64,000 nt of DNA from an uncultured Anaerolineales bacterium. Its GTDB lineage: Bacteria > Planctomycetota > Phycisphaerae > FEN-1346. The translations under genes were made by a program, and so were the position numbers. The stretch lies in assembly GCA_964539385.1 (NCBI GenBank), contig CAZIJC010000001.1, forward strand, positions 16,860-80,859, written 5' to 3'. Shown in pieces: positions 21,565-31,309 of the stretch. Below the pieces are notes generated by a model. It saw only the letters and a program-made list of their open reading frames with translations, searched no databases and was not told where the DNA came from. Every line of letters begins with the position of its first letter. Within the stretch, counting starts at the first letter, position 1.

Positions 21565-22899
21565 TTGAGACACTCTGTGCCCATTCTCGTGGCCCTCTTC
21601 CTGATGCCGGCGGCGTCGGCGCTTGGGGCCGAGCGTTTCGCGCTGCCCAAGTTCAAGAGCGGGTACGAGTTGCCGCCGCTTGAAGTCCCGCCGGCGAGTG
21701 CCGATGCGCTCGAGTACCTCGACGTCGCCGCCCTGGCGGCAGCGCTGGCGCTGGCATCGTACCTGGCGCTGCGTGCACGGTCGCGGCGGGCGCTGTGGGT
21801 GCTGATGGCCGCCTCGCTTGTGTACTTCGGTTTCTATCGCGGCGGGTGCATCTGCTCCATCGGCGCCATCCAGAACGTGGCCCTTGCGCTGTTGGACAAC
21901 GGATACGCGATACCGTTTACCGCCGTCGCGTTCTTCGTGATTCCGCTGGCGGTCACGCTTCTCGCCGGCCGAACGTTCTGCGCAGCCGTGTGCCCGCTGG
22001 GGGCGCTCCAGGACATCGTTGCGGTGCGGCCGCTTCGCGTGCCCGCGTGGCTGGACCACGGACTGGGACTCCTGGCCTACGTGTACCTTGGCGCGGCGGT
22101 GCTGTTCGCCGCCACAGGCGCGGCGTTTCTCATCTGCGAGTACGATCCGTTTGTGGCGATCTTCCGCCTGGTTCCTTTCACGCGCCCCAATGCCATGATG
22201 GAAGCGTTCGGCGGCAGCACGGGGATGCTGGTCCTCGGCGCGGGGTTCGTGCTGGTGGGCCTCTTTATCGCGCGGCCGTACTGCCGGTGGCTGTGTCCGT
22301 ATGGGGCGATCCTGCGGCTGCTGTCGCGCGCGTCGAAGTGGCACGTCACGATCACCCCGGACGATTGCGTCCACTGTACGCTGTGCGAAGATGCCTGCCC
22401 CTTCGGCGCGATCGCCAAACCGACGACCGACTTGCCACGCCCCGACCGCCTGATCGACCGCCGCCGCCTCGCACTGCTGCTGATCCTCGTCCCGCTGCTG
22501 CTGGCGGGCGGCGGCTACTTCGGACGGTGGCTCGGCGAACCGTTCTCGCGCGTGCACTTCACGGTGCAGCAGGCCCAGCGCGTCCGCCTCGAGGAGACCG
22601 GCCAAATCACCGGCACCGACGACATCAGCGACGCGTTCTACAAGACGCAGCGGCCGCGAGAGGAACTCTACGCCGAGGCCGACGCCATCCGCGGCCGCTT
22701 CGACATCGGCGGCACCCTCCTGGGGATCTGGGCCGGGCTGGTCGTCGCCGTGAAACTCATCCACCTGTCCGTCTATCGCACGCGGACTGATTACGAGCCC
22801 GACCGCGCCACGTGCCTGTCGTGCGGCCGATGTTTCAAATACTGCCCGGTTGAACGGAAGCGCCTCAAAACACTTAAGGGTGAACCGACAACGCCATGA
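21565..22899 (+). CDS. NapH/MauN-like integral membrane 4Fe-4S polyferredoxin
   Basis: In frame with tool ORF 20932..22899. The probable TTG/GTG start at about 21565-21577 gives the signal/TM stretch VPILVALFLMPAASALG. Motifs FCAAVCPLGALQD and YCRWLCPYGAIL sit in TM-flanked loops, with C-terminal CVHCTLCEDACP and CLSCGRCFKYCP. The stop overlaps the next gene's ATG. Confidence 0.65.
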   Translation: MRHSVPILVALFLMPAASALGAERFALPKFKSGYELPPLEVPPASADALEYLDVAALAAALALASYLALRARSRRALWVLMAASLVYFGFYRGGCICSIGAIQNVALALLDNGYAIPFTAVAFFVIPLAVTLLAGRTFCAAVCPLGALQDIVAVRPLRVPAWLDHGLGLLAYVYLGAAVLFAATGAAFLICEYDPFVAIFRLVPFTRPNAMMEAFGGSTGMLVLGAGFVLVGLFIARPYCRWLCPYGAILRLLSRASKWHVTITPDDCVHCTLCEDACPFGAIAKPTTDLPRPDRLIDRRRLALLLILVPLLLAGGGYFGRWLGEPFSRVHFTVQQAQRVRLEETGQITGTDDISDAFYKTQRPREELYAEADAIRGRFDIGGTLLGIWAGLVVAVKLIHLSVYRTRTDYEPDRATCLSCGRCFKYCPVERKRLKTLKGEPTTP

Positions 22900-24689
22900 C
22901 CGCCGACGCCAACAAACCGACCGACGCCGACAAGACCAACGATGCCCGGCAGGCCCGCCAGGACGAACTGGCCCGGGTCCGATACCAGGCGGCCGTGGGA
23001 ACCGCCATCGTGGCCGGCACGTTCTGCCTGCTGGTCGGCGTGACGCTGGCCGTCGCGCACTTCCAGAGAACGACGGTGGGGCTCGATGAATCCGAGGAAC
23101 TCAATAACCTGAGAAACGCGCTGCTCAAGGTCTCGGACCCCGAGGACCGCAAGGTCATTCGCGAAGACATCCGGCGGCGAGACCTCGAGTTGCGCCAGGA
23201 CTTCTTCGGCCGCCGCGCGTTCGCCAAGACCGGCGGGTACCTGCTCCTGGCCGGCCTGGCCGTCTTCATCGCCGGCGCGGGCCTTGCCGCCGCCTGCCGC
23301 AAACGGCTGCCGTCGCCGCTCCGCGCCGACCAGCGCAAGCCGGCCATCGGCGCCCAGGCGGCACGGTGGGCGGTGACCGTCGTCGCGGTAACGCTCGTCG
23401 CCGGCGGCGTCTTCGTGATCGCCTACTACGGCGGCGCACCGGACGGCGAAGCACTGGACGGCGGCGGTCAGGCGGTTGCCGTCAAGGACCCGCCCGGCCG
23501 CGAAGAGATCCGCAAACACTGGCCGCGTTTCCGCGGGCCGGACGGTTCCGGCCACAGCGCCTACACGAACATCCCCACCACCTGGAACGGCAAGACGGGC
23601 GAGAACATCCTCTGGAAGACGCCCGTGCCGCTGCCCGGCGAGAACTCGCCCGTCGTGTGGGGCGACCGTGTTTTCCTCTCCGGCGCGACGGAACAGCGGC
23701 GCGAGGTCTACTGCTTCAGCGCCGCCGACGGCAAACTCCTCTGGCAGAAACCGGTCTCGACACCCGCCGGGAGCATGACCGAGCCACCCGAAATCCTCGA
23801 AGATACCGGCTTTGCCTGCCCCACCTGTGCGACCGACGGTCGCTTCGTCTGCGCCATCTTCGCCAACGCCGACATCGCATGCTTCGACGTCGATGGCCGA
23901 GAGCGGTGGGTCCGCAACCTCGGCGCGTTCAAGAACACCTACGGCTACGCCTCGTCGCTCCATATCTACCGCAACACCCTCCTCGTGCTCGTGGACCAGG
24001 GCACACCGAGCAAGCCGCTGTCATACCTGCTGGCGCTCGACCTGGTGACGGGCAAGACGGCCTGGCGAACCGACCGGCCCGTCTCGGGTTCCTGGGCGAC
24101 GCCCATCCTCGCCCACACCGCCAAGCGCGAAGAGTTCATCGCCGTCGGCTGCCCGTGGGTCATCGCCTACAACCCCGCCGACGGGAAGGAACTGTGGCGG
24201 GCCAAGGTCCTCGACGGCGACGTGGCCCCCTCGCCCGTCTACCACTCCGGCACGGTTCTTGCGGTCAACACGGGGGCACAGTTAACCGCCATCCCGACGG
24301 GCGGCTCCGGCGACATCACCAAAACCGGCATCGCCTGGACCGCCGAGGACGGGCTGCCGGATATCGTCAGCCCCGTGACCGACGGCAAAGTGGTGCTCCT
24401 GGTGACCACCGACGGCCTCCTGACCTGCTACGCCGCCGCCGACGGCAAACTCCTGTGGGAACATGAGATCGACGCCGTCTTCATGTCGTCGCCCGGCCTG
24501 GTCGGCGATCGTGTCTACCTGATGGACGAGAAGGGCGTGATGCGCATCTTCACCGCCGCCGGCGGCTACAAGGAAGTGGCCAAGGCCGAACTGGGGGAGA
24601 AATCGCACTCCTCCCCCGCCTTTCTCAACGGACGCCTTTACCTGCACGGCAAGAAACACCTGTTCTGCATCGCAAAGAAGACCGACTAG
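22896..24689 (+). CDS. Membrane-anchored PQQ-like beta-propeller repeat protein
   Basis: 597 aa. Three predicted TM helices at the N-terminus, then propeller blades ([27 protein letters not shown] and others). ATG overlaps the upstream stop (ATGA). Confidence 0.65.
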
Positions 24690-24748
24690 CCCCGCCTGGC
24701 AAGGCGGGGTCGAAGCCCCGACCAGCCCCGCCTGGCAAGGCGGGGTCG
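24688..24748. repeat. Tandem pair of identical hairpin repeats (agCCCCGCCtggcaaGGCGGGGtcg) after the propeller gene
   Basis: Two copies at 24688-24712 and 24724-24748, each a 7 bp GC stem with a TGGCAA loop. Confidence 0.6.
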
Positions 24749-24763
24749 CAGTGTGGTTGACCC

Positions 24764-27136
24764 ATGACGCAAACAGACCTTGACCTGGCATTCGTGGATG
24801 AGGCGGTCGAGCGAATCGGTCGCGGCCCGGAGTCCGCCATCCCCATCCTCCAGGCCATCCAGGACCACTACCGCTACCTGCCCGCCGAAGCGCTGCGCCG
24901 CGTCTGCCGTCTGACCGAGATCACCCCCGCCCGGATCGTCGGCGTTGCGACGTTCTACACGCAGTTCCGCCATCGCCCTATGGGCAAACACCTGGTCCGC
25001 GTCTGCATCGGAACCGCCTGCCACGTCAAAGGCGCAGGGGTGATCCACGATGCCTTTCTCAAGCACCTCGGCGTCCCGGATGGCGAGGACACCGACCCGG
25101 ACGGTCTCTTCACGGTCGAGAGGGTCGCCTGCCTCGGCTGCTGCACGCTCGCGCCGGTCGCCCAGATCGGCGACCTCACCTACGGCCACCTGACGCCCGA
25201 GCGCACGGGGCAGGCCATCCACGACTTCCTGGAATCCGAGAAGCGCCGCGCCGACCGCCGGCCCGGCGAGGGCGGCCCGGCGAAACCCGGAGCCGAAGCC
25301 GCCCTGCCGGCGGGAGAGATCCGCATTACCCTGGACACCTGCTGCATAGCGCGCGGCAGCGGCTACGTGTACGAGGCACTCCTGGACGCCGTAGCCGACA
25401 CCGGCGCGCGGGCCGTCGTCAAGGGCGTCGGCTGTACCGGCATGACGTACCTGACGCCTCTGGTCACCGTAACCGAGCCCGGCCGCCCCCCTGCCCTGTA
25501 CGCCAACGTCGCGCCGCAGGACGCCGAGGCGATCGTGCTCCGTCATTTTCGGCCGCACGGACACCTCGCACGGGCCGGCAAGGCCGTCTCGCGGCTGCTT
25601 GACCAGGTTCTGACCGACGAGGCGTGGGAACCTCTCCAGCGCTACGCCGTCGATGTTCGCGATCCGCCGATCTCCGAGTTTCTCGGACCGCAAAAGCATA
25701 TCGCCACCGAGCACTCCGGCCGCGTGCAGCCGACGAACCTCGACGAATACCTCGACCGCGACGGGTTCCAGGCGCTCGAACGGTGCGTCACGGGCCGCTC
25801 GCCCGACGAGGTGATCGAGGAGGTTCGCGTCTCGGGCCTGCGCGGCCGCGGCGGCGCGGGGTACCCCACGAGCCTGAAGTGGCAGGCCGTCCGCCGCGCC
25901 GACGCCGACAAGAAGTACGTCGTCTGCAACGGCGACGAGGGCGACCCCGGCGCGTTCATGGACCGCATGATCCTCGAATCGCATCCGTACCGCGTCCTGG
26001 AGGGCATCGCGATTGCCGCCACGGCGGTCGGCGCCGAGGAAGGCGTGCTCTACATCCGGGCGGAGTATCCGCTGGCTGTCCGCCGCATCAGCGAGGCCAT
26101 CCGCCGCTCGACCGAGCGCGGCTTCCTGGGCGACGATATCCTGGGCACCGGCCGCCGGCTGCACCTGCGGATCATGCAAGGCGCCGGCGCGTTTGTGTGC
26201 GGCGAGGAGACGGCCCTGCTGGAATCGATCATGGGCCGCCGCGGCATGCCGCGACTCAGGCCGCCCTTCCCCGTTGAAAGCGGCCTCTGGGGCTGCCCGA
26301 CGCTCGTCAACAACGTCGAAACGCTTGCCCTGCTGCCGTGGATCATCCGAAACGGTGCGGCGGCCTTCGCCGAACTCGGCACCGACCACAGCAAAGGCAC
26401 GAAGGTTTTCTCGCTGGCCGGCAAGGTCAAGCGCGGCGGCCTGATCGAGGTGCCCATGGGGGTCACCATCCGCGAGATCGTCGAGGAGATCGGCGGCGGC
26501 ATGACGGGAGACCGCAAGTTCAAGGCCGTACAGATAGGCGGCCCTTCGGGCGGATGCCTCCCCGAGCGCCTGGCCGATATCCCGGTTGACTACGAGGCGC
26601 TGACCGAGGTCGGCGCCATGATGGGCTCGGGCGGCCTCGTGGTCCTCGACGACAAGGACTGCATCGTCGATATCGCCCGCTACTTCCTGGCGTTCACGCA
26701 GGACCAGTCGTGCGGCCGGTGCACGCCCTGCCGCGTCGGCACGCGCCGGATGCTCGACGTCCTGGACCGCCTGTGCGAGGGCCAGGGCAGGAAAGGCGAT
26801 ATCGAGGAACTTGAGGAACTGGCCTGGTACATCAAGAAGGCCAGTCTCTGTGGCCTCGGCAGCACGGCGCCCAATCCGGTCCTCACGACGATCGAGTATT
26901 TCCGCGATGAATACGAGGCCCACATCGATGGCCGCTGCCCCGCCGGACGCTGCAAGGCCCTCATCACCTACTCGATTACCGACGACTGCATCGGCTGCAC
27001 GCAGTGCGCCCAGCACTGCCCGTCCGAAGCGATCGCCATGCGCCCATACGAGAAACACGAGATCCAAGAGGACAAATGCGTCCGCTGCGACACCTGCCGC
27101 CAGGTCTGCCCGGTCGATGCCGTGGAAGTGACGTGA
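24764..27136 (+). CDS. NuoE-NuoF fusion flavoprotein (NADH-binding, FMN, Fe-S; HoxF/HndC/FdsB-like) with two C-terminal 4Fe-4S ferredoxin domains
   Basis: 790 aa. N-terminal NuoE-like thioredoxin-fold 2Fe-2S Cys residues (CIGTACH, CLGCC). NuoF motifs GRGGAGYPT, FVCGEETALLESI and SCGRCTPC. The C-terminal CIGCTQCAQHCP and CVRCDTCRQVCP are 4Fe-4S motifs. Confidence 0.8.
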   Translation: MTQTDLDLAFVDEAVERIGRGPESAIPILQAIQDHYRYLPAEALRRVCRLTEITPARIVGVATFYTQFRHRPMGKHLVRVCIGTACHVKGAGVIHDAFLKHLGVPDGEDTDPDGLFTVERVACLGCCTLAPVAQIGDLTYGHLTPERTGQAIHDFLESEKRRADRRPGEGGPAKPGAEAALPAGEIRITLDTCCIARGSGYVYEALLDAVADTGARAVVKGVGCTGMTYLTPLVTVTEPGRPPALYANVAPQDAEAIVLRHFRPHGHLARAGKAVSRLLDQVLTDEAWEPLQRYAVDVRDPPISEFLGPQKHIATEHSGRVQPTNLDEYLDRDGFQALERCVTGRSPDEVIEEVRVSGLRGRGGAGYPTSLKWQAVRRADADKKYVVCNGDEGDPGAFMDRMILESHPYRVLEGIAIAATAVGAEEGVLYIRAEYPLAVRRISEAIRRSTERGFLGDDILGTGRRLHLRIMQGAGAFVCGEETALLESIMGRRGMPRLRPPFPVESGLWGCPTLVNNVETLALLPWIIRNGAAAFAELGTDHSKGTKVFSLAGKVKRGGLIEVPMGVTIREIVEEIGGGMTGDRKFKAVQIGGPSGGCLPERLADIPVDYEALTEVGAMMGSGGLVVLDDKDCIVDIARYFLAFTQDQSCGRCTPCRVGTRRMLDVLDRLCEGQGRKGDIEELEELAWYIKKASLCGLGSTAPNPVLTTIEYFRDEYEAHIDGRCPAGRCKALITYSITDDCIGCTQCAQHCPSEAIAMRPYEKHEIQEDKCVRCDTCRQVCPVDAVEVT

Positions 27137-27149
27137 GGACGGACCATCT

Positions 27150-27693
27150 AACCGCAGAGAACGCAGAGAACGCAGAGCAACGGCAAAGAATCGGGCAACA
27201 GCAAAACCGCCTGATACAAAGGTGTCGGCGATGAACGAGGAACTCAACCGGATAACAGAGGCCATCATCGGCGCAGCAATGGACGTTCATCGCGAACTCG
27301 GTCCGGGGCTGCTTGAGTCCGCTTACGAAGCCTGCCTCGCCTATGAACTGATTCAACGCGGCTTCAAGGTCGAGCGGCAAAAGACGCTTCCCTTGAAATA
27401 CCGAGACGTCACATTGGACTGCGGCTACCGAATCGACCTGTTGGTCGAAGGGCAAGTGGTGGTAGAAGTCAAAGCGGTCGAGCAGTGGAACCCGGTTCAC
27501 CAGGCCCAGGTTCTCTCGTACTTGAAACTGTCCGGATGCAGAGTGGGGCTTATCATCAATTTTAACGTGAGGATGCTCAAGACGGGCATTAAGCGGTTCG
27601 TCCTTGGACTGAAGGAGTAACCACGCGCAGACCGTGTGCTCATGGCTGCACGCTTCTCAATTACCCTCTGCGTTCTCTGCGTTCTCTGCGGTT
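27150..27693. mobile_element. GxxExxY-gene cassette bounded by perfect 28-bp terminal inverted repeats (AACCGCAGAGAACGCAGAGAACGCAGAG), inserted between two flavoprotein subunit genes
   Basis: Left arm 27150-27177, right arm 27666-27693 (reverse complement). Each arm contains (AGAGAACGC)n. The RBS and ATG of the downstream gene lie immediately outside the right arm. Confidence 0.5.
27231..27620 (+). CDS. GxxExxY family protein (PD-(D/E)xK-like)
   Basis: 130 aa. GPGLLESAY matches the GxxExxY signature, and the C-terminal block YRIDLLVEGQVVVEVKAV is present. Confidence 0.7.
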   Translation: MNEELNRITEAIIGAAMDVHRELGPGLLESAYEACLAYELIQRGFKVERQKTLPLKYRDVTLDCGYRIDLLVEGQVVVEVKAVEQWNPVHQAQVLSYLKLSGCRVGLIINFNVRMLKTGIKRFVLGLKE

Positions 27694-27710
27694 AAAAGGA
27701 ATGGTCGATA

Positions 27711-29279
27711 ATGCCGAGACTGGTGATCGACAACCAGGATGTTGAAGTCCCTGAAGGCGCCACCATTCTTGATGCTGCACGCCAACTCGGAATCGAGATC
27801 CCGACGCTGTGCTTCCGCCAAGGCTGCGAGCCGTCAACCTCCTGCATGGTGTGCGTCGTCAAGGTGAAGAACCCCGACCGGTTCGTGGCTTCCTGCGGCG
27901 CGCGGGCCGCCGAGGGGATGATTGTTGAGAGCCGGACGGAAGAGGTCCGCGAGGCCCGGCGAACGGCGCTGGAACTGTTGCTCTCCGACCATCCGGCCGA
28001 TTGTATCGCCCCCTGCCAGACCGTGTGCCCGGCGCAGATGAACATCCCGCGCATGATCCGCCGGATCGCGGCCGGCGACGCCGCAGCAGCAGCCGAAACG
28101 GCCCGAACGGCGCTCGTCCTTCCCGCAACGCTCGGCCGCATCTGCCCTGCCCCATGCGAAAAAGGCTGCCGCCGTGCCCGCCACGACGCCGCCGTCTCCA
28201 TCCGCCTCCTGCACCGCCACGCCGCCGAAACCGACCTTGCGTCGGCCACTCCGTGGCTGCCTGCATGCCAACACGACACGGGCAAGCGCGTCGCCATCGT
28301 CGGCGCCGGGCCGGCGGGGCTGGCCGCCGCATGGCGCCTGCTTCAGGAAGGACACGGCGCGACGCTGTTCGACGATCGCGAAGCGCCCGGCGGCATGCTC
28401 CGCTACGGCGTTGAGGAAGACCTCCTGCCACGCAGCGTCCTCGATGCCGAGATCGCCCTCATCGAGCAACTCGGCGCCGAGTTCCGCGGCAGCACCAGGG
28501 TCGGACGCGATGTCGCCATCGTCGAACTGGCTGGCGATTTCGACGCCGTCCTCGTGGCCTGCGGCCGGATGGTGGAAGGCGACGCCGGGCAACTCGGCCT
28601 CGAAGCGGCCGAGAAGGGCCTCAAGACCACCCGGCAGACCTTCGAGACACCGACGGCCGGCGTGTTCGCCGCAGGCGATGCCCTCCAGCCCCGCCGGATG
28701 GCCGTCCGCGCCGTCGCCGACGGCAAAGCCGCCGCCCGTTCCATCATCCAGTACCTGGCCGGCCGGCCCGTCGTCGCACCGGAAAGGCCGTTTACGACGC
28801 ATCTCGGCCACCCGACCGACGAAGAAATGACACCGATGCTTGCCGCCGCAAGCCTCGACGCCCGCGTCGTTCCTTCCGGCGGCGAGGCCGCAGGCTTTAC
28901 ATCCGACGAGGCCTGCCGCGAAGCGCCGCGGTGCCTTCACTGCGACTGCCGCAAGGCCGACACCTGCCTCCTGCGCAAATGGGCGCTTGCGCTCGGCGCC
29001 AAACCGACCCGCCACAGCGGGACGCGGCGGCCGTTCGAACTCCACGTCTCGCACCCCGACGTCGTGTACGAGCCCGGCAAGTGCATCGCGTGCGGCCTAT
29101 GTATCCAGGTGGCGGCGCGAAGGGGCGAGGCACTCGGTCTGACGTTTATCGGCCGCGGCTTCGCTGTGCGGGTCGGCGTTCCCTTCAACGAAACCATTGC
29201 GGAGGCTCTGAAAGTAGCCGCCGCCGAATGTGTCGCAGCCTGTCCGACGGGGGCCCTGGCCTTCAAGAACCAAGCGTAA
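27711..29279 (+). CDS. 2Fe-2S ferredoxin (NuoG/HydA N-terminal-like) fused to GltD-like FAD/NAD(P)H-binding oxidoreductase, with C-terminal 4Fe-4S
   Basis: MPRLVIDNQDVEVPEGATILDAA is a NuoG-like start with Cys residues. VAIVGAGPAGLAAA is a dinucleotide-binding motif. GVFAAGD is present. C-terminal CIACGLC...CPTG. The AAAAGGA SD sits 10 nt upstream. Confidence 0.7.
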   Translation: MPRLVIDNQDVEVPEGATILDAARQLGIEIPTLCFRQGCEPSTSCMVCVVKVKNPDRFVASCGARAAEGMIVESRTEEVREARRTALELLLSDHPADCIAPCQTVCPAQMNIPRMIRRIAAGDAAAAAETARTALVLPATLGRICPAPCEKGCRRARHDAAVSIRLLHRHAAETDLASATPWLPACQHDTGKRVAIVGAGPAGLAAAWRLLQEGHGATLFDDREAPGGMLRYGVEEDLLPRSVLDAEIALIEQLGAEFRGSTRVGRDVAIVELAGDFDAVLVACGRMVEGDAGQLGLEAAEKGLKTTRQTFETPTAGVFAAGDALQPRRMAVRAVADGKAAARSIIQYLAGRPVVAPERPFTTHLGHPTDEEMTPMLAAASLDARVVPSGGEAAGFTSDEACREAPRCLHCDCRKADTCLLRKWALALGAKPTRHSGTRRPFELHVSHPDVVYEPGKCIACGLCIQVAARRGEALGLTFIGRGFAVRVGVPFNETIAEALKVAAAECVAACPTGALAFKNQA

Positions 29280-29317: not shown

Positions 29318-31309
29318 TCAGCACTCGGCGCCGGCGAAGCCGAGGTACTCGTCGAGCCAATCGTCGGCCCGCAAGACACCCTTGCGCTGGGCGAGGCTGA
29401 GGTGCTCGGCCCGCCGCTGGGCGGCGTTGAAGGCGTGGCGCGAGAGGTAACCGCTGACTTCCCGCTCGGTCCGCCCGTAGCGCCGGCGAAGCGACGCCGA
29501 CAGGTGCGGCGCGTGGCGGCGGACGAGTTCGTCTTCCAGGCTGACGACCGCCTGGGCCGAGCCGCGGTCGCCCTGGCGGGCACTTCGGCCGAAGAGTTGC
29601 CGGTCGATGCGCCCGGCCTCGTGACGTTCGGTAGCCAGGACGTGCAGGCCGCCGAGGTCCGCCACGCCGGCGCCCAGTTTGATGTCGGTCCCGCGTCCGG
29701 CCATGTTGGTCGCGACGGTGATCTTTCCGGGCTGGCCGGCGGCGGCAGTCACCTGGGCCTCCTCGCGGTGGCGGACGGCGTTCAGAACCTGATGGTCCAA
29801 GCCGGCGTCGGTCAGAAGGCGGCTCAGGTGCTCGCTCGCGCGGACGCTGCGGGTGCCGACGAGAATAGGCCGGCCGGTCTCGTGAAGGCGCCGAATCTGG
29901 CCGACGATGGCCTTCCACTTGGCGTCCTGGGTCGCGTACACGCGGTCGGGCAGGACCTTGCGGATGCACGGCCGGTTCGTCGGGATGGTGACAACCGGCG
30001 CGTGGTAAATCTGCCAGAACTCGCGCCAGGCCTCGGCGGCGGTGCCGGTCATGCCGCCGAGTTTGCGGTAGAGACGGAAGAACCGCTGAAAACTGACCCT
30101 GGCGTACGTGTCCTTGGGCGGCTGGACCTCGACCTGTTCCTTGGCCGAGACCGCCTGGTGCAGGCCGTCGCGCCATTCGCGGTCGGGCATGAGGCGGCCG
30201 GTAAACTCGTCGACGATGACGACCTTCTCCTCCTCGTCGATGATGTACTGCTTGTCGCGCAGGTAGAACTCGCGAGCGGTCAGGGCCTGGGTGACGAGTT
30301 CCTCGCGGCGTCTCGCCCCGGCCCACACGCCGCCCAGGTCGTCGGCCAGTTCCTCAAGGCGGTCCTTGCCGGCGGGCGTCAAGTCGACTTCGCGGTACCG
30401 CTGGTTCACGCGGAAGTCGCGCGCCGGATCCAACTGGGCCACCAGGTAGGCCGCCTGGCGGAAGGCTTCGACCTGTTCGGGGTTGGGCGCCTCGCCGGAG
30501 ATGATGAGCGGCGTGACGGCCTCGTCGATGAGAATGGAATCGGCCTCGTCGACGATCACGAAGTGCAGCCCGCGTTGAACGAGCCGGTCTGTGCCGCTGC
30601 CGGCGCCTTCGGCGATCTTGGCCATCAGGGCCGACGGCAGCCCCTGGAGCCGGCCCAGCGACAGGCGGTCGCGAAGGAAGTCGGCCGTCACCTCCTTGTT
30701 CGTGCAATAGGTGATGTCGGCCTGATAGGCCTCACGGCGATCGGGCGACTGCATGCCCTGCTCGACGGCAGCCACCCGCAGCCCGCAGAACCGGTAGATC
30801 GAACCCATCCAGTCGGCGTCGCGTGTGGCCAGGTAATCGTTGTGGGTGACGATGTGGCAGCCCTTGCCCCGCCATCCCTCGATGGTGGCGGGCAGCGTCG
30901 CGGCGAGGGTCTTGCCCTCGCCGGTGGCCATCTCGGCGATGCAGCCGGCCTCCAGCGCCAGTGCCCCGGCAACCTGAACGCGGAAGATGCTCATGCCGGT
31001 TTGGCGCCGGGCCACTTCGCGGACCAGGGCAAACGCGTGCTCCAGAACCTCATCCGTGGCGCCGCCGCGCCGGAAGCGATCGCGCATCTCGGCGGCGGCG
31101 TCGCGCAGCCGCCCGGAACCGAGGTCACGGTGCTCCTTTTCGAGGGCCAGCACACGCTCGGCCCGGCGCAGGAACCGCATGCGACGGGGCACGAAGGCCT
31201 TGGCGATGCCGACGGCGGCGTCCCAGGCGGCATCCACGCCCCTGGGCAGCGGCCTGTCGGGCGTACGTTGCGCCAGCGTTCGCCACGTTGTGCTTGGAAT
31301 ACGGACCAC
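29318..31309 (-). CDS. SecA-like preprotein translocase ATPase, short form (663 aa; SecA2-like, lacking the long C-terminal domains)
   Basis: Aligns to the SecA motor domains: MSIFRVQVAGALALEAGCIAEMATGEGKTLAATLPA, VTHNDYLATRD, YQADITYCTNKE, VDEADSILIDEA, ATNMAGRGTDIKLG. GTG start is 1 nt after the upstream gene's stop. Confidence 0.7.
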   Translation of the reverse strand: MVRIPSTTWRTLAQRTPDRPLPRGVDAAWDAAVGIAKAFVPRRMRFLRRAERVLALEKEHRDLGSGRLRDAAAEMRDRFRRGGATDEVLEHAFALVREVARRQTGMSIFRVQVAGALALEAGCIAEMATGEGKTLAATLPATIEGWRGKGCHIVTHNDYLATRDADWMGSIYRFCGLRVAAVEQGMQSPDRREAYQADITYCTNKEVTADFLRDRLSLGRLQGLPSALMAKIAEGAGSGTDRLVQRGLHFVIVDEADSILIDEAVTPLIISGEAPNPEQVEAFRQAAYLVAQLDPARDFRVNQRYREVDLTPAGKDRLEELADDLGGVWAGARRREELVTQALTAREFYLRDKQYIIDEEEKVVIVDEFTGRLMPDREWRDGLHQAVSAKEQVEVQPPKDTYARVSFQRFFRLYRKLGGMTGTAAEAWREFWQIYHAPVVTIPTNRPCIRKVLPDRVYATQDAKWKAIVGQIRRLHETGRPILVGTRSVRASEHLSRLLTDAGLDHQVLNAVRHREEAQVTAAAGQPGKITVATNMAGRGTDIKLGAGVADLGGLHVLATERHEAGRIDRQLFGRSARQGDRGSAQAVVSLEDELVRRHAPHLSASLRRRYGRTEREVSGYLSRHAFNAAQRRAEHLSLAQRKGVLRADDWLDEYLGFAGAEC

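What the first reader, a model, noticed from the sequence alone, without database searches (positions are those of the whole stretch)
27150..27693. GxxExxY gene carried on a cassette with perfect 28-bp terminal inverted repeats, inserted between two partner flavoprotein genes
The NuoE-NuoF fusion gene and the 2Fe-2S/GltD-like gene look like adjacent subunits of one complex. They are separated by 570 bp that contain only a 130-aa GxxExxY (PD-(D/E)xK-like) gene. This is bracketed by AACCGCAGAGAACGCAGAGAACGCAGAG on the left and its exact reverse complement on the right, and each arm contains tandem AGAGAACGC. GxxExxY genes are known to lie in intervening or mobile contexts. A clean TIR-bounded unit suggests a small non-autonomous mobile element or recombination cassette.
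Basis: seen in the sequence. Interest (0 to 1): 0.6.

Follow-up and report, generated by a model that had tools for sequence, protein, structure and literature searches.

The report
Hairpin-bounded nuclease gene cassette inside operon
A small nuclease gene enclosed by two perfectly complementary 28-base arms sits between two partner genes; it belongs to a widespread, barely described family of hairpin cassettes built like the intervening sequences known from bacterial ribosomal RNA genes, and at this site it is an old resident, not a recent arrival.

Summary
A 129-aa GxxExxY / PD-(D/E)xK gene (27231-27620) is bracketed by a perfect 28-nt inverted repeat (27150-27177 / 27666-27693), and each arm is three tandem CGCAGAG units. 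The cassette is one instance of a general design. In an independent sample, 48 of 61 GxxExxY genes have arms of the form ..AC-(C-R-C-N-R-A-G + 1-2 nt)x2-4 ... complement ..GT.., against about 0.08% expected by chance. Median arm duplex is 27 pairs and median cassette size 467 nt. Gene-less hairpins with the same arms exist, and in L200 they are internal-deletion derivatives of the gene cassette. There is no target-site duplication. The gene almost always points the same way as its upstream neighbour (50:3). The nearest known thing is the ORF-bearing 23S rRNA intervening sequence (Coxiella: 428-444 nt, 28-bp stem, tandem heptamers, cut by RNase III). PF05635 'IVS protein' genes outside rRNA share the design. 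At this nuoEF|gltD-like junction the element spans lineages down to 74% NuoEF identity as a full cassette, a gene-less hairpin or remnants, with the gene under purifying selection. RNase III processing and the nuclease's role are inferred, not shown.

The parts
27144..27177 (.). Left arm. The perfect core is 27150-27177 (AAC + CGCAGAG-AA-CGCAGAG-AA-CGCAGAG). The outer boundary is ..TAAC|C.
   Evidence: the same boundary type (T[C/T/A]AC) is seen in 60 cassettes
27178..27230 (+). 5' spacer between the left arm and the start codon. It contains a possible Shine-Dalgarno sequence, AAGGTG, at 27219-27224. In relative L212 this segment is replaced by unrelated sequence.
27231..27620 (+). GxxExxY / PDDEXK_3 gene, 129 aa. 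It has motif G26-x-x-E29-x-x-Y32 and catalytic D69...E79-x-K81.
27621..27665 (+). 3' spacer between the stop codon and the right arm.
27666..27699 (.). Right arm. The perfect core is 27666-27693 (CTCTGCG-TT-CTCTGCG-TT-CTCTGCG + GTT). The outer boundary is G|GTTA.
27695..27713 (+). Ribosome-binding region (AAAGGAA) and start codon of the downstream gltD-like gene, directly abutting the right arm. In the predicted RNA fold it is partly drawn into the extension of the stem. The sequence is conserved in the gene-less relatives L216 and L221.
24764..27136 (+). Upstream host gene: NuoE-NuoF-ferredoxin fusion. It ends 7 nt before the extended left arm.
27711..29279 (+). Downstream host gene: 2Fe-2S + GltD-like FAD/NAD(P) oxidoreductase subunit.

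Best explanation
This is a resident copy of a widespread family of small palindromic 'intervening' cassettes. Each is a GxxExxY nuclease gene with a Cas4/RecB-like PD-(D/E)xK fold, enclosed by two inverted arrays of tandem 7-nt units (consensus C-R-C-N-R-A-G, period 8-9) ending in ..AC / GT... It is the protein-operon counterpart of the ORF-bearing intervening sequences of 23S rRNA genes. Proposed working: (1) [Inferred from gene order, the orientation bias and the absence of promoter- or terminator-like sites] the cassette has no promoter of its own and is transcribed as part of the nuoEF to gltD-like operon. (2) [Fold predicted; cleavage inferred by analogy with rRNA intervening sequences] the arms pair into a duplex of about 28-34 bp that closes off the whole insert. 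This is the kind of substrate RNase III cuts, so the insert can be cut out of the transcript and the two host cistrons stay functional. That would explain why such cassettes are tolerated inside operons and rRNA. (3) [Shown by comparison] at the DNA level the family spreads without target-site duplication and homogenises its arms within each copy. It decays by internal deletion into gene-less hairpins that persist, duplicate in tandem and can be nested. (4) [Speculative] the nuclease, whose catalytic residues are conserved and which is under purifying selection, acts on the arms or on hairpin or cruciform DNA to promote copying or maintenance of the cassette. At this locus the element is old and vertically inherited, with repeated loss of the gene.
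Against: No experiment or RNA-seq shows that the stem forms or is cut. Mismatches between arms show no bias toward G.U pairs on the sense strand (21 vs 24), so complementarity is not visibly tuned for RNA. The two arms resemble each other as much out of register as in register. That fits repeated protein-binding units or copy-homogenisation as well as it fits a stem. Position 4 of the unit is mismatched in about a third of unit pairs. No GxxExxY cassette was seen inside an rRNA gene in the 10 loci tested. Only one copy lies in this 64-kb window, and no clean empty site was found, so mobility is inferred only from family-wide patterns. A role for the nuclease in mobility has no direct support.
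Confidence: 0.6

Rival explanations
1. One reading: a non-autonomous TIR-bounded miniature transposon or recombination cassette, moved in trans by a transposase or integrase encoded elsewhere. The GxxExxY gene would be passive cargo.
For: A perfect terminal inverted repeat. Gene-less short versions are dispersed at different loci of one genome (L044 and L077). G+C content differs from the host. The family is patchily distributed across phyla.
Against: There is no target-site duplication; the observed distribution equals the control. Arm sequence varies between copies while the cargo family stays the same, 48 of 61. That is the opposite of what is expected if arms serve one trans-acting enzyme and cargo is arbitrary. 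The cargo has conserved catalytic residues and is under purifying selection. No transposase or integrase is nearby. The gene is absent from 50,697 phage records and found in only 8 of 72,556 plasmid records, all non-mobilizable.
Confidence: 0.12
2. REP/RAYT-like system: the heptamer-array hairpins are a REP-like genomic repeat family, and GxxExxY is their dedicated enzyme, playing the part of the RAYT transposase. The gene sits between two inverted repeat copies as RAYT genes do. The arms work mainly as DNA (hairpin or cruciform), not as RNA.
For: Tandem arrays of same-unit hairpins surround the gene in L134, L141, L178, L200, L209 and L223. Hairpins with identical arms lie far from any GxxExxY gene (118 of 120 loci). 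Unit type is homogenised within a cassette and there is no RNA-strand bias. There is no target-site duplication, as for REP and IS200/IS605 elements. Nested hairpins occur (L216, L220, L037, L055). The fold is related to Cas4 and to junction-resolving Hjc.
Against: This window has no other hairpin in 64 kb. Co-occurrence of hairpins and GxxExxY within genomes could not be tested. The tandem arrays have identical spacers, so they may arise by simple duplication. PF05635 cassettes carry similar arms without any nuclease. The 50:3 orientation bias is not predicted by a purely DNA-level model.
Confidence: 0.25
3. Host-serving element: the hairpin is an intercistronic RNA stability or processing signal that tunes the ratio of the two flavoprotein subunits. 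GxxExxY would be a domesticated or defence-type nuclease that happens to be lodged in its loop.
For: The hairpin and its junction with the downstream ribosome-binding site persist after gene loss (L221, L216, L220). The stem extension touches the downstream ribosome-binding region. The gene is under purifying selection over long vertical descent. There are weak profile hits to Cas4 (E 4e-4).
Against: The same cassette design sits in unrelated operons (radA, fabD|fabG, ade). No defence-system neighbourhood is seen. L219 has lost most of the hairpin. Low G+C and a mosaic 5' end point to exchange among copies.
Confidence: 0.12
4. A chance repeat or a metagenome assembly artefact.
For: The window and many comparison loci come from metagenome assemblies.
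Against: None of 100 shuffles produced a match. The identical arrangement occurs in at least 10 independent assemblies and in diverged relatives. The same design occurs in finished genomes of cultured isolates.
Confidence: 0.01

Closest known systems
ORF-bearing intervening sequences (IVS) of 23S rRNA genes (Coxiella burnetii, Leptospira, Brucella; S23p / PF05635 ORF)
   Same: Size is about 430-540 nt. One small ORF of about 120-130 aa lies in the loop. Terminal inverted repeats form a stem of about 28 bp. Tandem heptamer repeats of variable number sit in the 5' arm region. The element lies inside a host transcript, is regarded as selfish, and its origin is unknown (PMC4990558). PF05635 genes outside rRNA show the same arm design.
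   Different: The host transcript here is a protein-coding operon, not 23S rRNA. The ORF is a PD-(D/E)xK nuclease, not the four-helix-bundle S23p. The heptamer unit is CGCAGAG rather than GACAGAT. RNase III excision is proven for rRNA intervening sequences but only inferred here.
REP / BIME elements and their RAYT transposases
   Same: Short intergenic hairpin-forming repeats occur singly, in alternating-orientation clusters and flanking the gene of an associated enzyme. There is no target-site duplication. They are located inside operons.
   Different: The enzyme is a PD-(D/E)xK nuclease, not an HUH/Y1 transposase. Each arm is a purine-rich tandem array rather than a self-palindromic REP with a GTAG or CGTC tag. 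Copy number in this genome appears low.
GGGNATC / GGGGAYT heptamer arrays of Xanthomonas and Nostoc (Rehm et al. 2015, PMC4692102)
   Same: Intergenic tandem heptamers occur in a few units, often as convergent inverted pairs (70-75 cases per Xanthomonas genome). They lie mostly between co-directional ORFs, are transcribed, vary in copy number and have no known function.
   Different: The unit sequence differs, and those authors interpreted it as G-quadruplex-forming. They reported no link to enclosed ORFs.
MITEs and TIR (DDE-type) transposons
   Same: Terminal inverted repeats are present, and short gene-less internal-deletion derivatives exist.
   Different: There is no target-site duplication. 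Arm sequence is not conserved between copies. No transposase is associated.
Free-standing homing-endonuclease genes (e.g. phage T4 seg/mob; the PD-(D/E)xK enzyme I-Ssp6803I)
   Same: A small nuclease gene is lodged between conserved host genes, with presence/absence variation among relatives.
   Different: Homing endonuclease genes are not enclosed by tandem-repeat hairpin arms. No cleavage site or homing event is known for GxxExxY.

Membership tests
GxxExxY protein family (TIGR04256 / Pfam PF13366 PDDEXK_3) | Profile match above the curated cut-off over the full length | tested here: met
   TIGR04256: 159 bits against a cut-off of 35, profile positions 2-116 of 116. PF13366: 152 bits against a cut-off of 22.
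GxxExxY protein family (TIGR04256 / Pfam PF13366 PDDEXK_3) | G-x-x-E-x-x-Y motif and the PD-(D/E)xK catalytic triad | tested here: met
   G26, E29, Y32, D69 and K81 are invariant and E79 nearly invariant in a 26-sequence alignment.
GxxExxY protein family (TIGR04256 / Pfam PF13366 PDDEXK_3) | Restriction-endonuclease-like (PD-(D/E)xK) fold | tested here: met
GxxExxY protein family (TIGR04256 / Pfam PF13366 PDDEXK_3) | Nuclease activity | not testable with these tools
   No biochemical data were found. Steczkiewicz et al. 2012 list the function as unknown.
23S rRNA intervening sequence (IVS) elements | Inserted in a 23S rRNA gene (helix 25 or 45) | tested here: not met
   The cassette lies between two protein-coding genes. 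Rfam found no match in the region.
23S rRNA intervening sequence (IVS) elements | Terminal inverted repeats forming a long stem (about 20-30 bp) that encloses the element | tested here: met
   A 28-nt perfect repeat, 34 nt at 94%. The stem is present in the MFE and centroid folds.
23S rRNA intervening sequence (IVS) elements | Excision from the precursor RNA by RNase III | not testable with these tools
   [quoted passage not shown] It is shown for Coxiella in PMC4990558.
23S rRNA intervening sequence (IVS) elements | ORF, when present, of the S23p / PF05635 family | tested here: not met
   The ORF is PF13366, not PF05635.
23S rRNA intervening sequence (IVS) elements | Tandem heptamer repeats in the 5' terminal region (a Coxiella feature) | tested here: met
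   Three CGCAGAG units with a 9-nt period. Coxiella has GACAGAT x2-3.
MITE / TIR transposon | Target-site duplication flanking the inverted repeats | tested here: not met
   Among 60 cassettes including the window, the direct-repeat length distribution equals the mismatched-pair control.
MITE / TIR transposon | Multiple near-identical copies in the same genome | tested here: inconclusive
   The 28-mer is unique in the 64-kb window. The whole genome was not available. Multi-copy hairpins are seen in other genomes (L044/L077; L134).
MITE / TIR transposon | Terminal sequence shared with an autonomous partner that encodes a transposase | tested here: not met
   No transposase is present in or near the cassettes. 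Arm sequence differs from copy to copy.
REP / RAYT system | Associated enzyme is an HUH/Y1 (IS200/IS605-like) transposase | tested here: not met
   The enzyme is a PD-(D/E)xK protein.
REP / RAYT system | The gene is flanked by inverted copies of a repeat that also occurs dispersed without the gene | tested here: met
   L200, L134 and L223 have gene-flanking arms plus neighbouring gene-less hairpins. In 118 of 120 exact-arm loci there is no GxxExxY gene.
Integron gene cassette (attC) | A single 3' attC site with GTTRRRY core sites, in an array next to intI | tested here: not met
   The arms flank both sides of the gene. The boundaries are ..AC|C and G|GT.. with variable following bases. Cassettes are scattered inside operons and no integrase gene is nearby.

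The most novel reading that the evidence does not exclude
GxxExxY cassettes, PF05635 (S23p) cassettes, the ORF-bearing 23S rRNA intervening sequences and the gene-less heptamer-array hairpins are all one superfamily of mobile palindromic elements that colonise transcribed spacers in many bacterial phyla. The GxxExxY protein would be a new kind of element-encoded nuclease. It would recognise the tandem-heptamer arms, as hairpin or cruciform DNA or as repeated duplex sites, and drive duplication-free copying or homing of the cassette and its MITE-like derivatives. RNase III excision of the RNA stem would make the insertions harmless to the host.
Probability: 0.25. Interest if true: 0.85.

Novelty: new variant of a known kind. 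Interest (0 to 1): 0.62.

Why it matters
The origin and function of rRNA intervening sequences are still described as unclear in the 2016 Coxiella study, more than 25 years after their discovery (PMC4990558). If these cassettes are the same kind of element living in ordinary operons, that question becomes testable on thousands of loci. The GxxExxY family spans 31,243 clusters at 50% identity. The comparison offers clear predictions: RNase III cuts in the arm stem, nuclease activity on the arms, and gene-less derivatives. It would also assign a biological context to a very large protein family of unknown function. It would explain intergenic tandem-heptamer inverted repeats that others have noted without explanation (PMC4692102). 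Practically, it would flag a recurrent source of mis-annotation, since ORFs get called through the arms, as in Sphingomonas.

Tried and rejected
- **Rfam.** No match at E<=1 in 26500-28300. No match at gathering threshold in 10 related loci, and no rRNA context.
- **G.U strand-bias test for an RNA-specific stem.** No bias, 21 versus 24.
- **Pair-specific covariation.** Arm similarity is as high out of register as in register, so it cannot be used as evidence for base-pair compensation.
- **Target-site duplications.** None beyond chance.
- **Sigma-70 promoter and intrinsic terminator scan.** Nothing on the + strand.
- **PDB sequence search.** No relative found.
- **PADLOC and PHROGs.** Only weak hits: Cas4 at E 4e-4, and an unknown-function phrog.
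- **Phage genomes.** No GxxExxY homologue.
- **Gene-less hairpins versus neighbouring gene orientation.** 13 codirectional, 8 convergent and 4 divergent, not distinguishable from the 60:20:20 background.
- **Clean empty site.** Seven NuoEF orthologue lineages were inspected. All but one carry some form of the element. The exception, L217, has lost the adjacency with the gltD-like gene.
- **Exact 25-mer in genomes.** It picks up a mixed set, including unrelated tandem repeats (Streptomyces L040 and L089; L127) and a Microcoleus single-arm repeat. The cross-phylum count is therefore not a count of cassettes.
- **Integron-cassette reading.** Rejected; see the membership test.

Full report
**1. 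The observation**

The sequence shows AACCGCAGAGAACGCAGAGAACGCAGAG at 27150-27177 and its exact reverse complement at 27666-27693. Pairing extends to 34 nt at 94% (27144-27177 / 27666-27699). Each arm is three CGCAGAG heptamers with 2-nt spacers. Nothing similar occurs elsewhere in the window at up to 3 mismatches, and no shuffle produced a match.

A looser scan for arrays of C-R-C-N-R-A-G units finds only these two three-unit arms in 64 kb. Three-unit arrays are expected 0.01 times by chance.

Between the arms lies one ORF, 27231-27620, 129 aa. It is a full-length member of TIGR04256 GxxExxY and PF13366 PDDEXK_3. The neighbours are a NuoE-NuoF-ferredoxin fusion (24764-27136) and a 2Fe-2S + GltD-like flavoprotein (27711-29279), both on the same strand. 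The cassette is 55% G+C against 68-69% for the neighbours.

**2. The arms are a family trait**

I fetched 80 GxxExxY loci from metagenomes through conserved peptide patterns, which makes the sample independent of the arms. Nearly all show an inverted repeat across the gene, and the arms share one design:
- an outer ..T(C/T/A)AC;
- then 2-4 tandem units of consensus C-R-C-N-R-A-G separated by 1-2 nt;
- the complement on the other side, ending in GT(G/A/T)A...

The unit differs between loci (CGCAGAG, CACAGAG, CGCCGAG, CACGGAG, CACGAAG, CGCAAAG and others).

Counted strictly, 48 of 61 loci with long enough flanks have both arms in place. The density of such arrays elsewhere in the same loci predicts 0.08%. 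The arm duplex has a median of 27 pairs, and 57 of 64 have at least 20. The cassette measures 424-623 nt, median 467.

The design also occurs in finished genomes of cultured bacteria, which excludes an assembly artefact:
- Bacteroides finegoldii, between radA and an FAD protein;
- Gemmatirosa;
- Bernardetia;
- Sphingomonas parapaucimobilis, between fabD and fabG of the fatty-acid operon.

The protein family is very large: 31,243 clusters at 50% identity with E<=1e-3. It is absent from 50,697 phage records and present in only 8 of 72,556 plasmid records.

**3. Gene-less relatives**

The distance between an L-arm and the next R-arm is bimodal, either 0-150 nt or 350-580 nt.

The exact 25-mer of this window's arm occurs in more than 120 genome stretches from many phyla. 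Only two of 120 have a GxxExxY gene beside it. About a quarter (33 of 120) have a partner arm, mostly 13-175 nt away, forming short gene-less hairpins. The rest are a mixed set, including unrelated tandem repeats.

In L200 the gene cassette is flanked by two short hairpins. Each loop consists of the start codon plus the last ~30 nt of the GxxExxY reading frame. These hairpins are therefore internal-deletion derivatives of the cassette, as MITEs are of transposons.

Such hairpins also form tandem arrays around the gene (L134, L141, L178, L209, L223). They occur at different loci of one genome (L044 and L077). They can be nested inside one another (L037, L055, L216, L220).

**4. History of this locus**

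The same nuoEF | cassette | gltD-like arrangement is found in relatives with 96%, 85% and 76% NuoEF identity (L211, L213-215, L218). GxxExxY identity (95, 71 and 72%) tracks that of the flanking genes. Codons with only synonymous differences outnumber those with amino-acid changes, 55:37 and 19:6. The gene is therefore maintained by selection.

Other lineages have lost the gene but kept the element:
- L221 (77%) has a 134-nt spacer with the same CGCAGAG arms and the same right junction, GTTAAAAGGAATGGTCGATAATG.
- L216 and L220 keep degenerate outer arms enclosing a nested hairpin of a different unit (CGCAAAG).
- L219 keeps only remnants.

No clean empty site was found. Between the window and L212, the arms and the 3' two-thirds of the cassette are nearly identical, while the 5' spacer and the first ~10 codons are unrelated. 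That mosaic suggests exchange between copies. So the element is old here, inherited vertically, and repeatedly reduced.

**5. What kind of element it is not**

There is no target-site duplication next to the arms in 60 cassettes; the distribution equals the control. Arm sequences are not conserved between copies. No transposase or integrase accompanies them. This argues against a DDE-type TIR transposon or MITE, and against an integron cassette.

**6. Do the arms work as RNA or as DNA?**

Evidence favouring a role in RNA:
- The gene points the same way as its upstream neighbour in 50 of 53 cases, with gaps of only ~60 and ~94 nt.
- No promoter- or terminator-like site lies on the + strand here.
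- The predicted RNA fold closes the insert with the long stem, z = -4.3.
- The stem abuts, and its extension partly covers, the ribosome-binding site of the downstream gene.

Evidence against an RNA-only role:
- Mismatches between arms are not biased toward G.U on the sense strand, 21 versus 24.
- The two arms are as alike out of register as in register. This looks like homogenisation of one unit type per cassette, or repeated binding sites, rather than pair-by-pair compensation.

Both levels may matter.

**7. The protein**

**8. Comparison with known systems**

The best match is the ORF-bearing intervening sequence of 23S rRNA. [quoted passage not shown] It has two or three tandem heptamers (GACAGAT) ahead of a 14-kDa ORF, and RNase III cuts it in the stem. 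Its origin is unresolved (PMC4990558).

I also found genes of that ORF family (PF05635) outside rRNA, enclosed by inverted arrays of tandem 7-8-mers: GCAGGGG in L121, GCAGGGA in L226, GCAGAGGA in L227, and imperfect arms in L229. Two cargo families therefore share one architecture.

Related but incomplete descriptions exist for intergenic GGGAATC heptamer arrays in Xanthomonas, many of them inverted pairs with function unknown (PMC4692102).

The gene-plus-dispersed-hairpin pattern resembles REP/RAYT, but the enzyme class and the repeat structure both differ.

I found no paper describing GxxExxY cassettes or their arms. The literature library is limited to open-access text.

**9. Verdict**

It is a hairpin-bounded nuclease cassette of an rRNA-IVS-like class, living in a protein operon.

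Shown here:
- the architecture and its generality;
- deletion derivatives;
- the lack of target-site duplication;
- the orientation bias;
- long residence at this locus;
- purifying selection on the gene.

Inferred, not shown:
- co-transcription with the operon;
- RNase III excision;
- any role of the nuclease in copying the element.

I rate it a new variant of a known kind, with moderate-to-high interest.

Noticed in passing
L045, L051, L056, L074, L094, L113, L116, L128 (Microcoleus and relatives): A dispersed ~90-nt repeat, ATCGGAATGATTTAAC(CGCAGAGAA)3 GAAGAGAAGAGAGAGATGAATGATTCCGAT. It carries only one heptamer arm, set inside a different small hairpin (ATCGGAAT...ATTCCGAT).
   Followed up: partly
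L218 5856-6124: A tandem duplication of about 135 nt includes the last ~17 nt of nuoEF together with the left arm, giving two left arms upstream of the GxxExxY gene. L213 shows a shorter duplication of the nuoEF end.
   Followed up: no
window 27178-27260 versus L212 1762-1845: The arms and the 3' two-thirds of the cassette are nearly identical between the two genomes. The 5' spacer and the first ~10 codons are unrelated, so the cassette is a mosaic, which suggests recombination between cassette copies.
   Followed up: partly
L103 929-1708 (-): A Uma2/DUF820 gene, another PD-(D/E)xK family (PF05685, E 9e-18), is bracketed by arrays of the heptamer CATTAGT in a cyanobacterial genome.
   Followed up: no
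P0241-P0256: The best-scoring representatives of the family are 260-295-aa proteins with two GxxExxY domains. They are either tandem fusions or gene calls that read through two adjacent cassettes.
   Followed up: no
L225 1495-1923 (Sphingomonas parapaucimobilis, fabD|fabG): The annotated GxxExxY ORF (143 aa) runs through the right arm (cttcgcgGcttcgcgTGAA) and ends 2 nt before fabG. The arms can be swallowed by gene calls.
   Followed up: partly
L052 700-890 (Verrucomicrobia MAG); L127 6884-6973: L052 has a 54-nt tandem array in which each unit ends in a right-arm-type CTCTGCG array. L127 has a plain (CGCAGAGAA)x10 array next to a tRNA gene end. The Streptomyces hits (L040, L089) look like unrelated degenerate tandem repeats.
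   Followed up: no
window 22896-29279 and L001, L213: The host genes form a conserved co-directional cluster: polyferredoxin (Fer4_5), PQQ-like beta-propeller protein, NuoEF fusion, then the GltD-like subunit. A SecA-domain gene (663 aa) lies convergent downstream (29318-31309, - strand). The cluster looks like an uncharacterised flavin/iron-sulfur oxidoreductase operon of Phycisphaerae-type planctomycetes.
   Followed up: no
L230 (Pseudanabaena galeata plasmid pPg_04): A PF05635-family gene annotated as a four helix bundle protein lies directly downstream of cas1-cas2, without recognisable arms.
   Followed up: no
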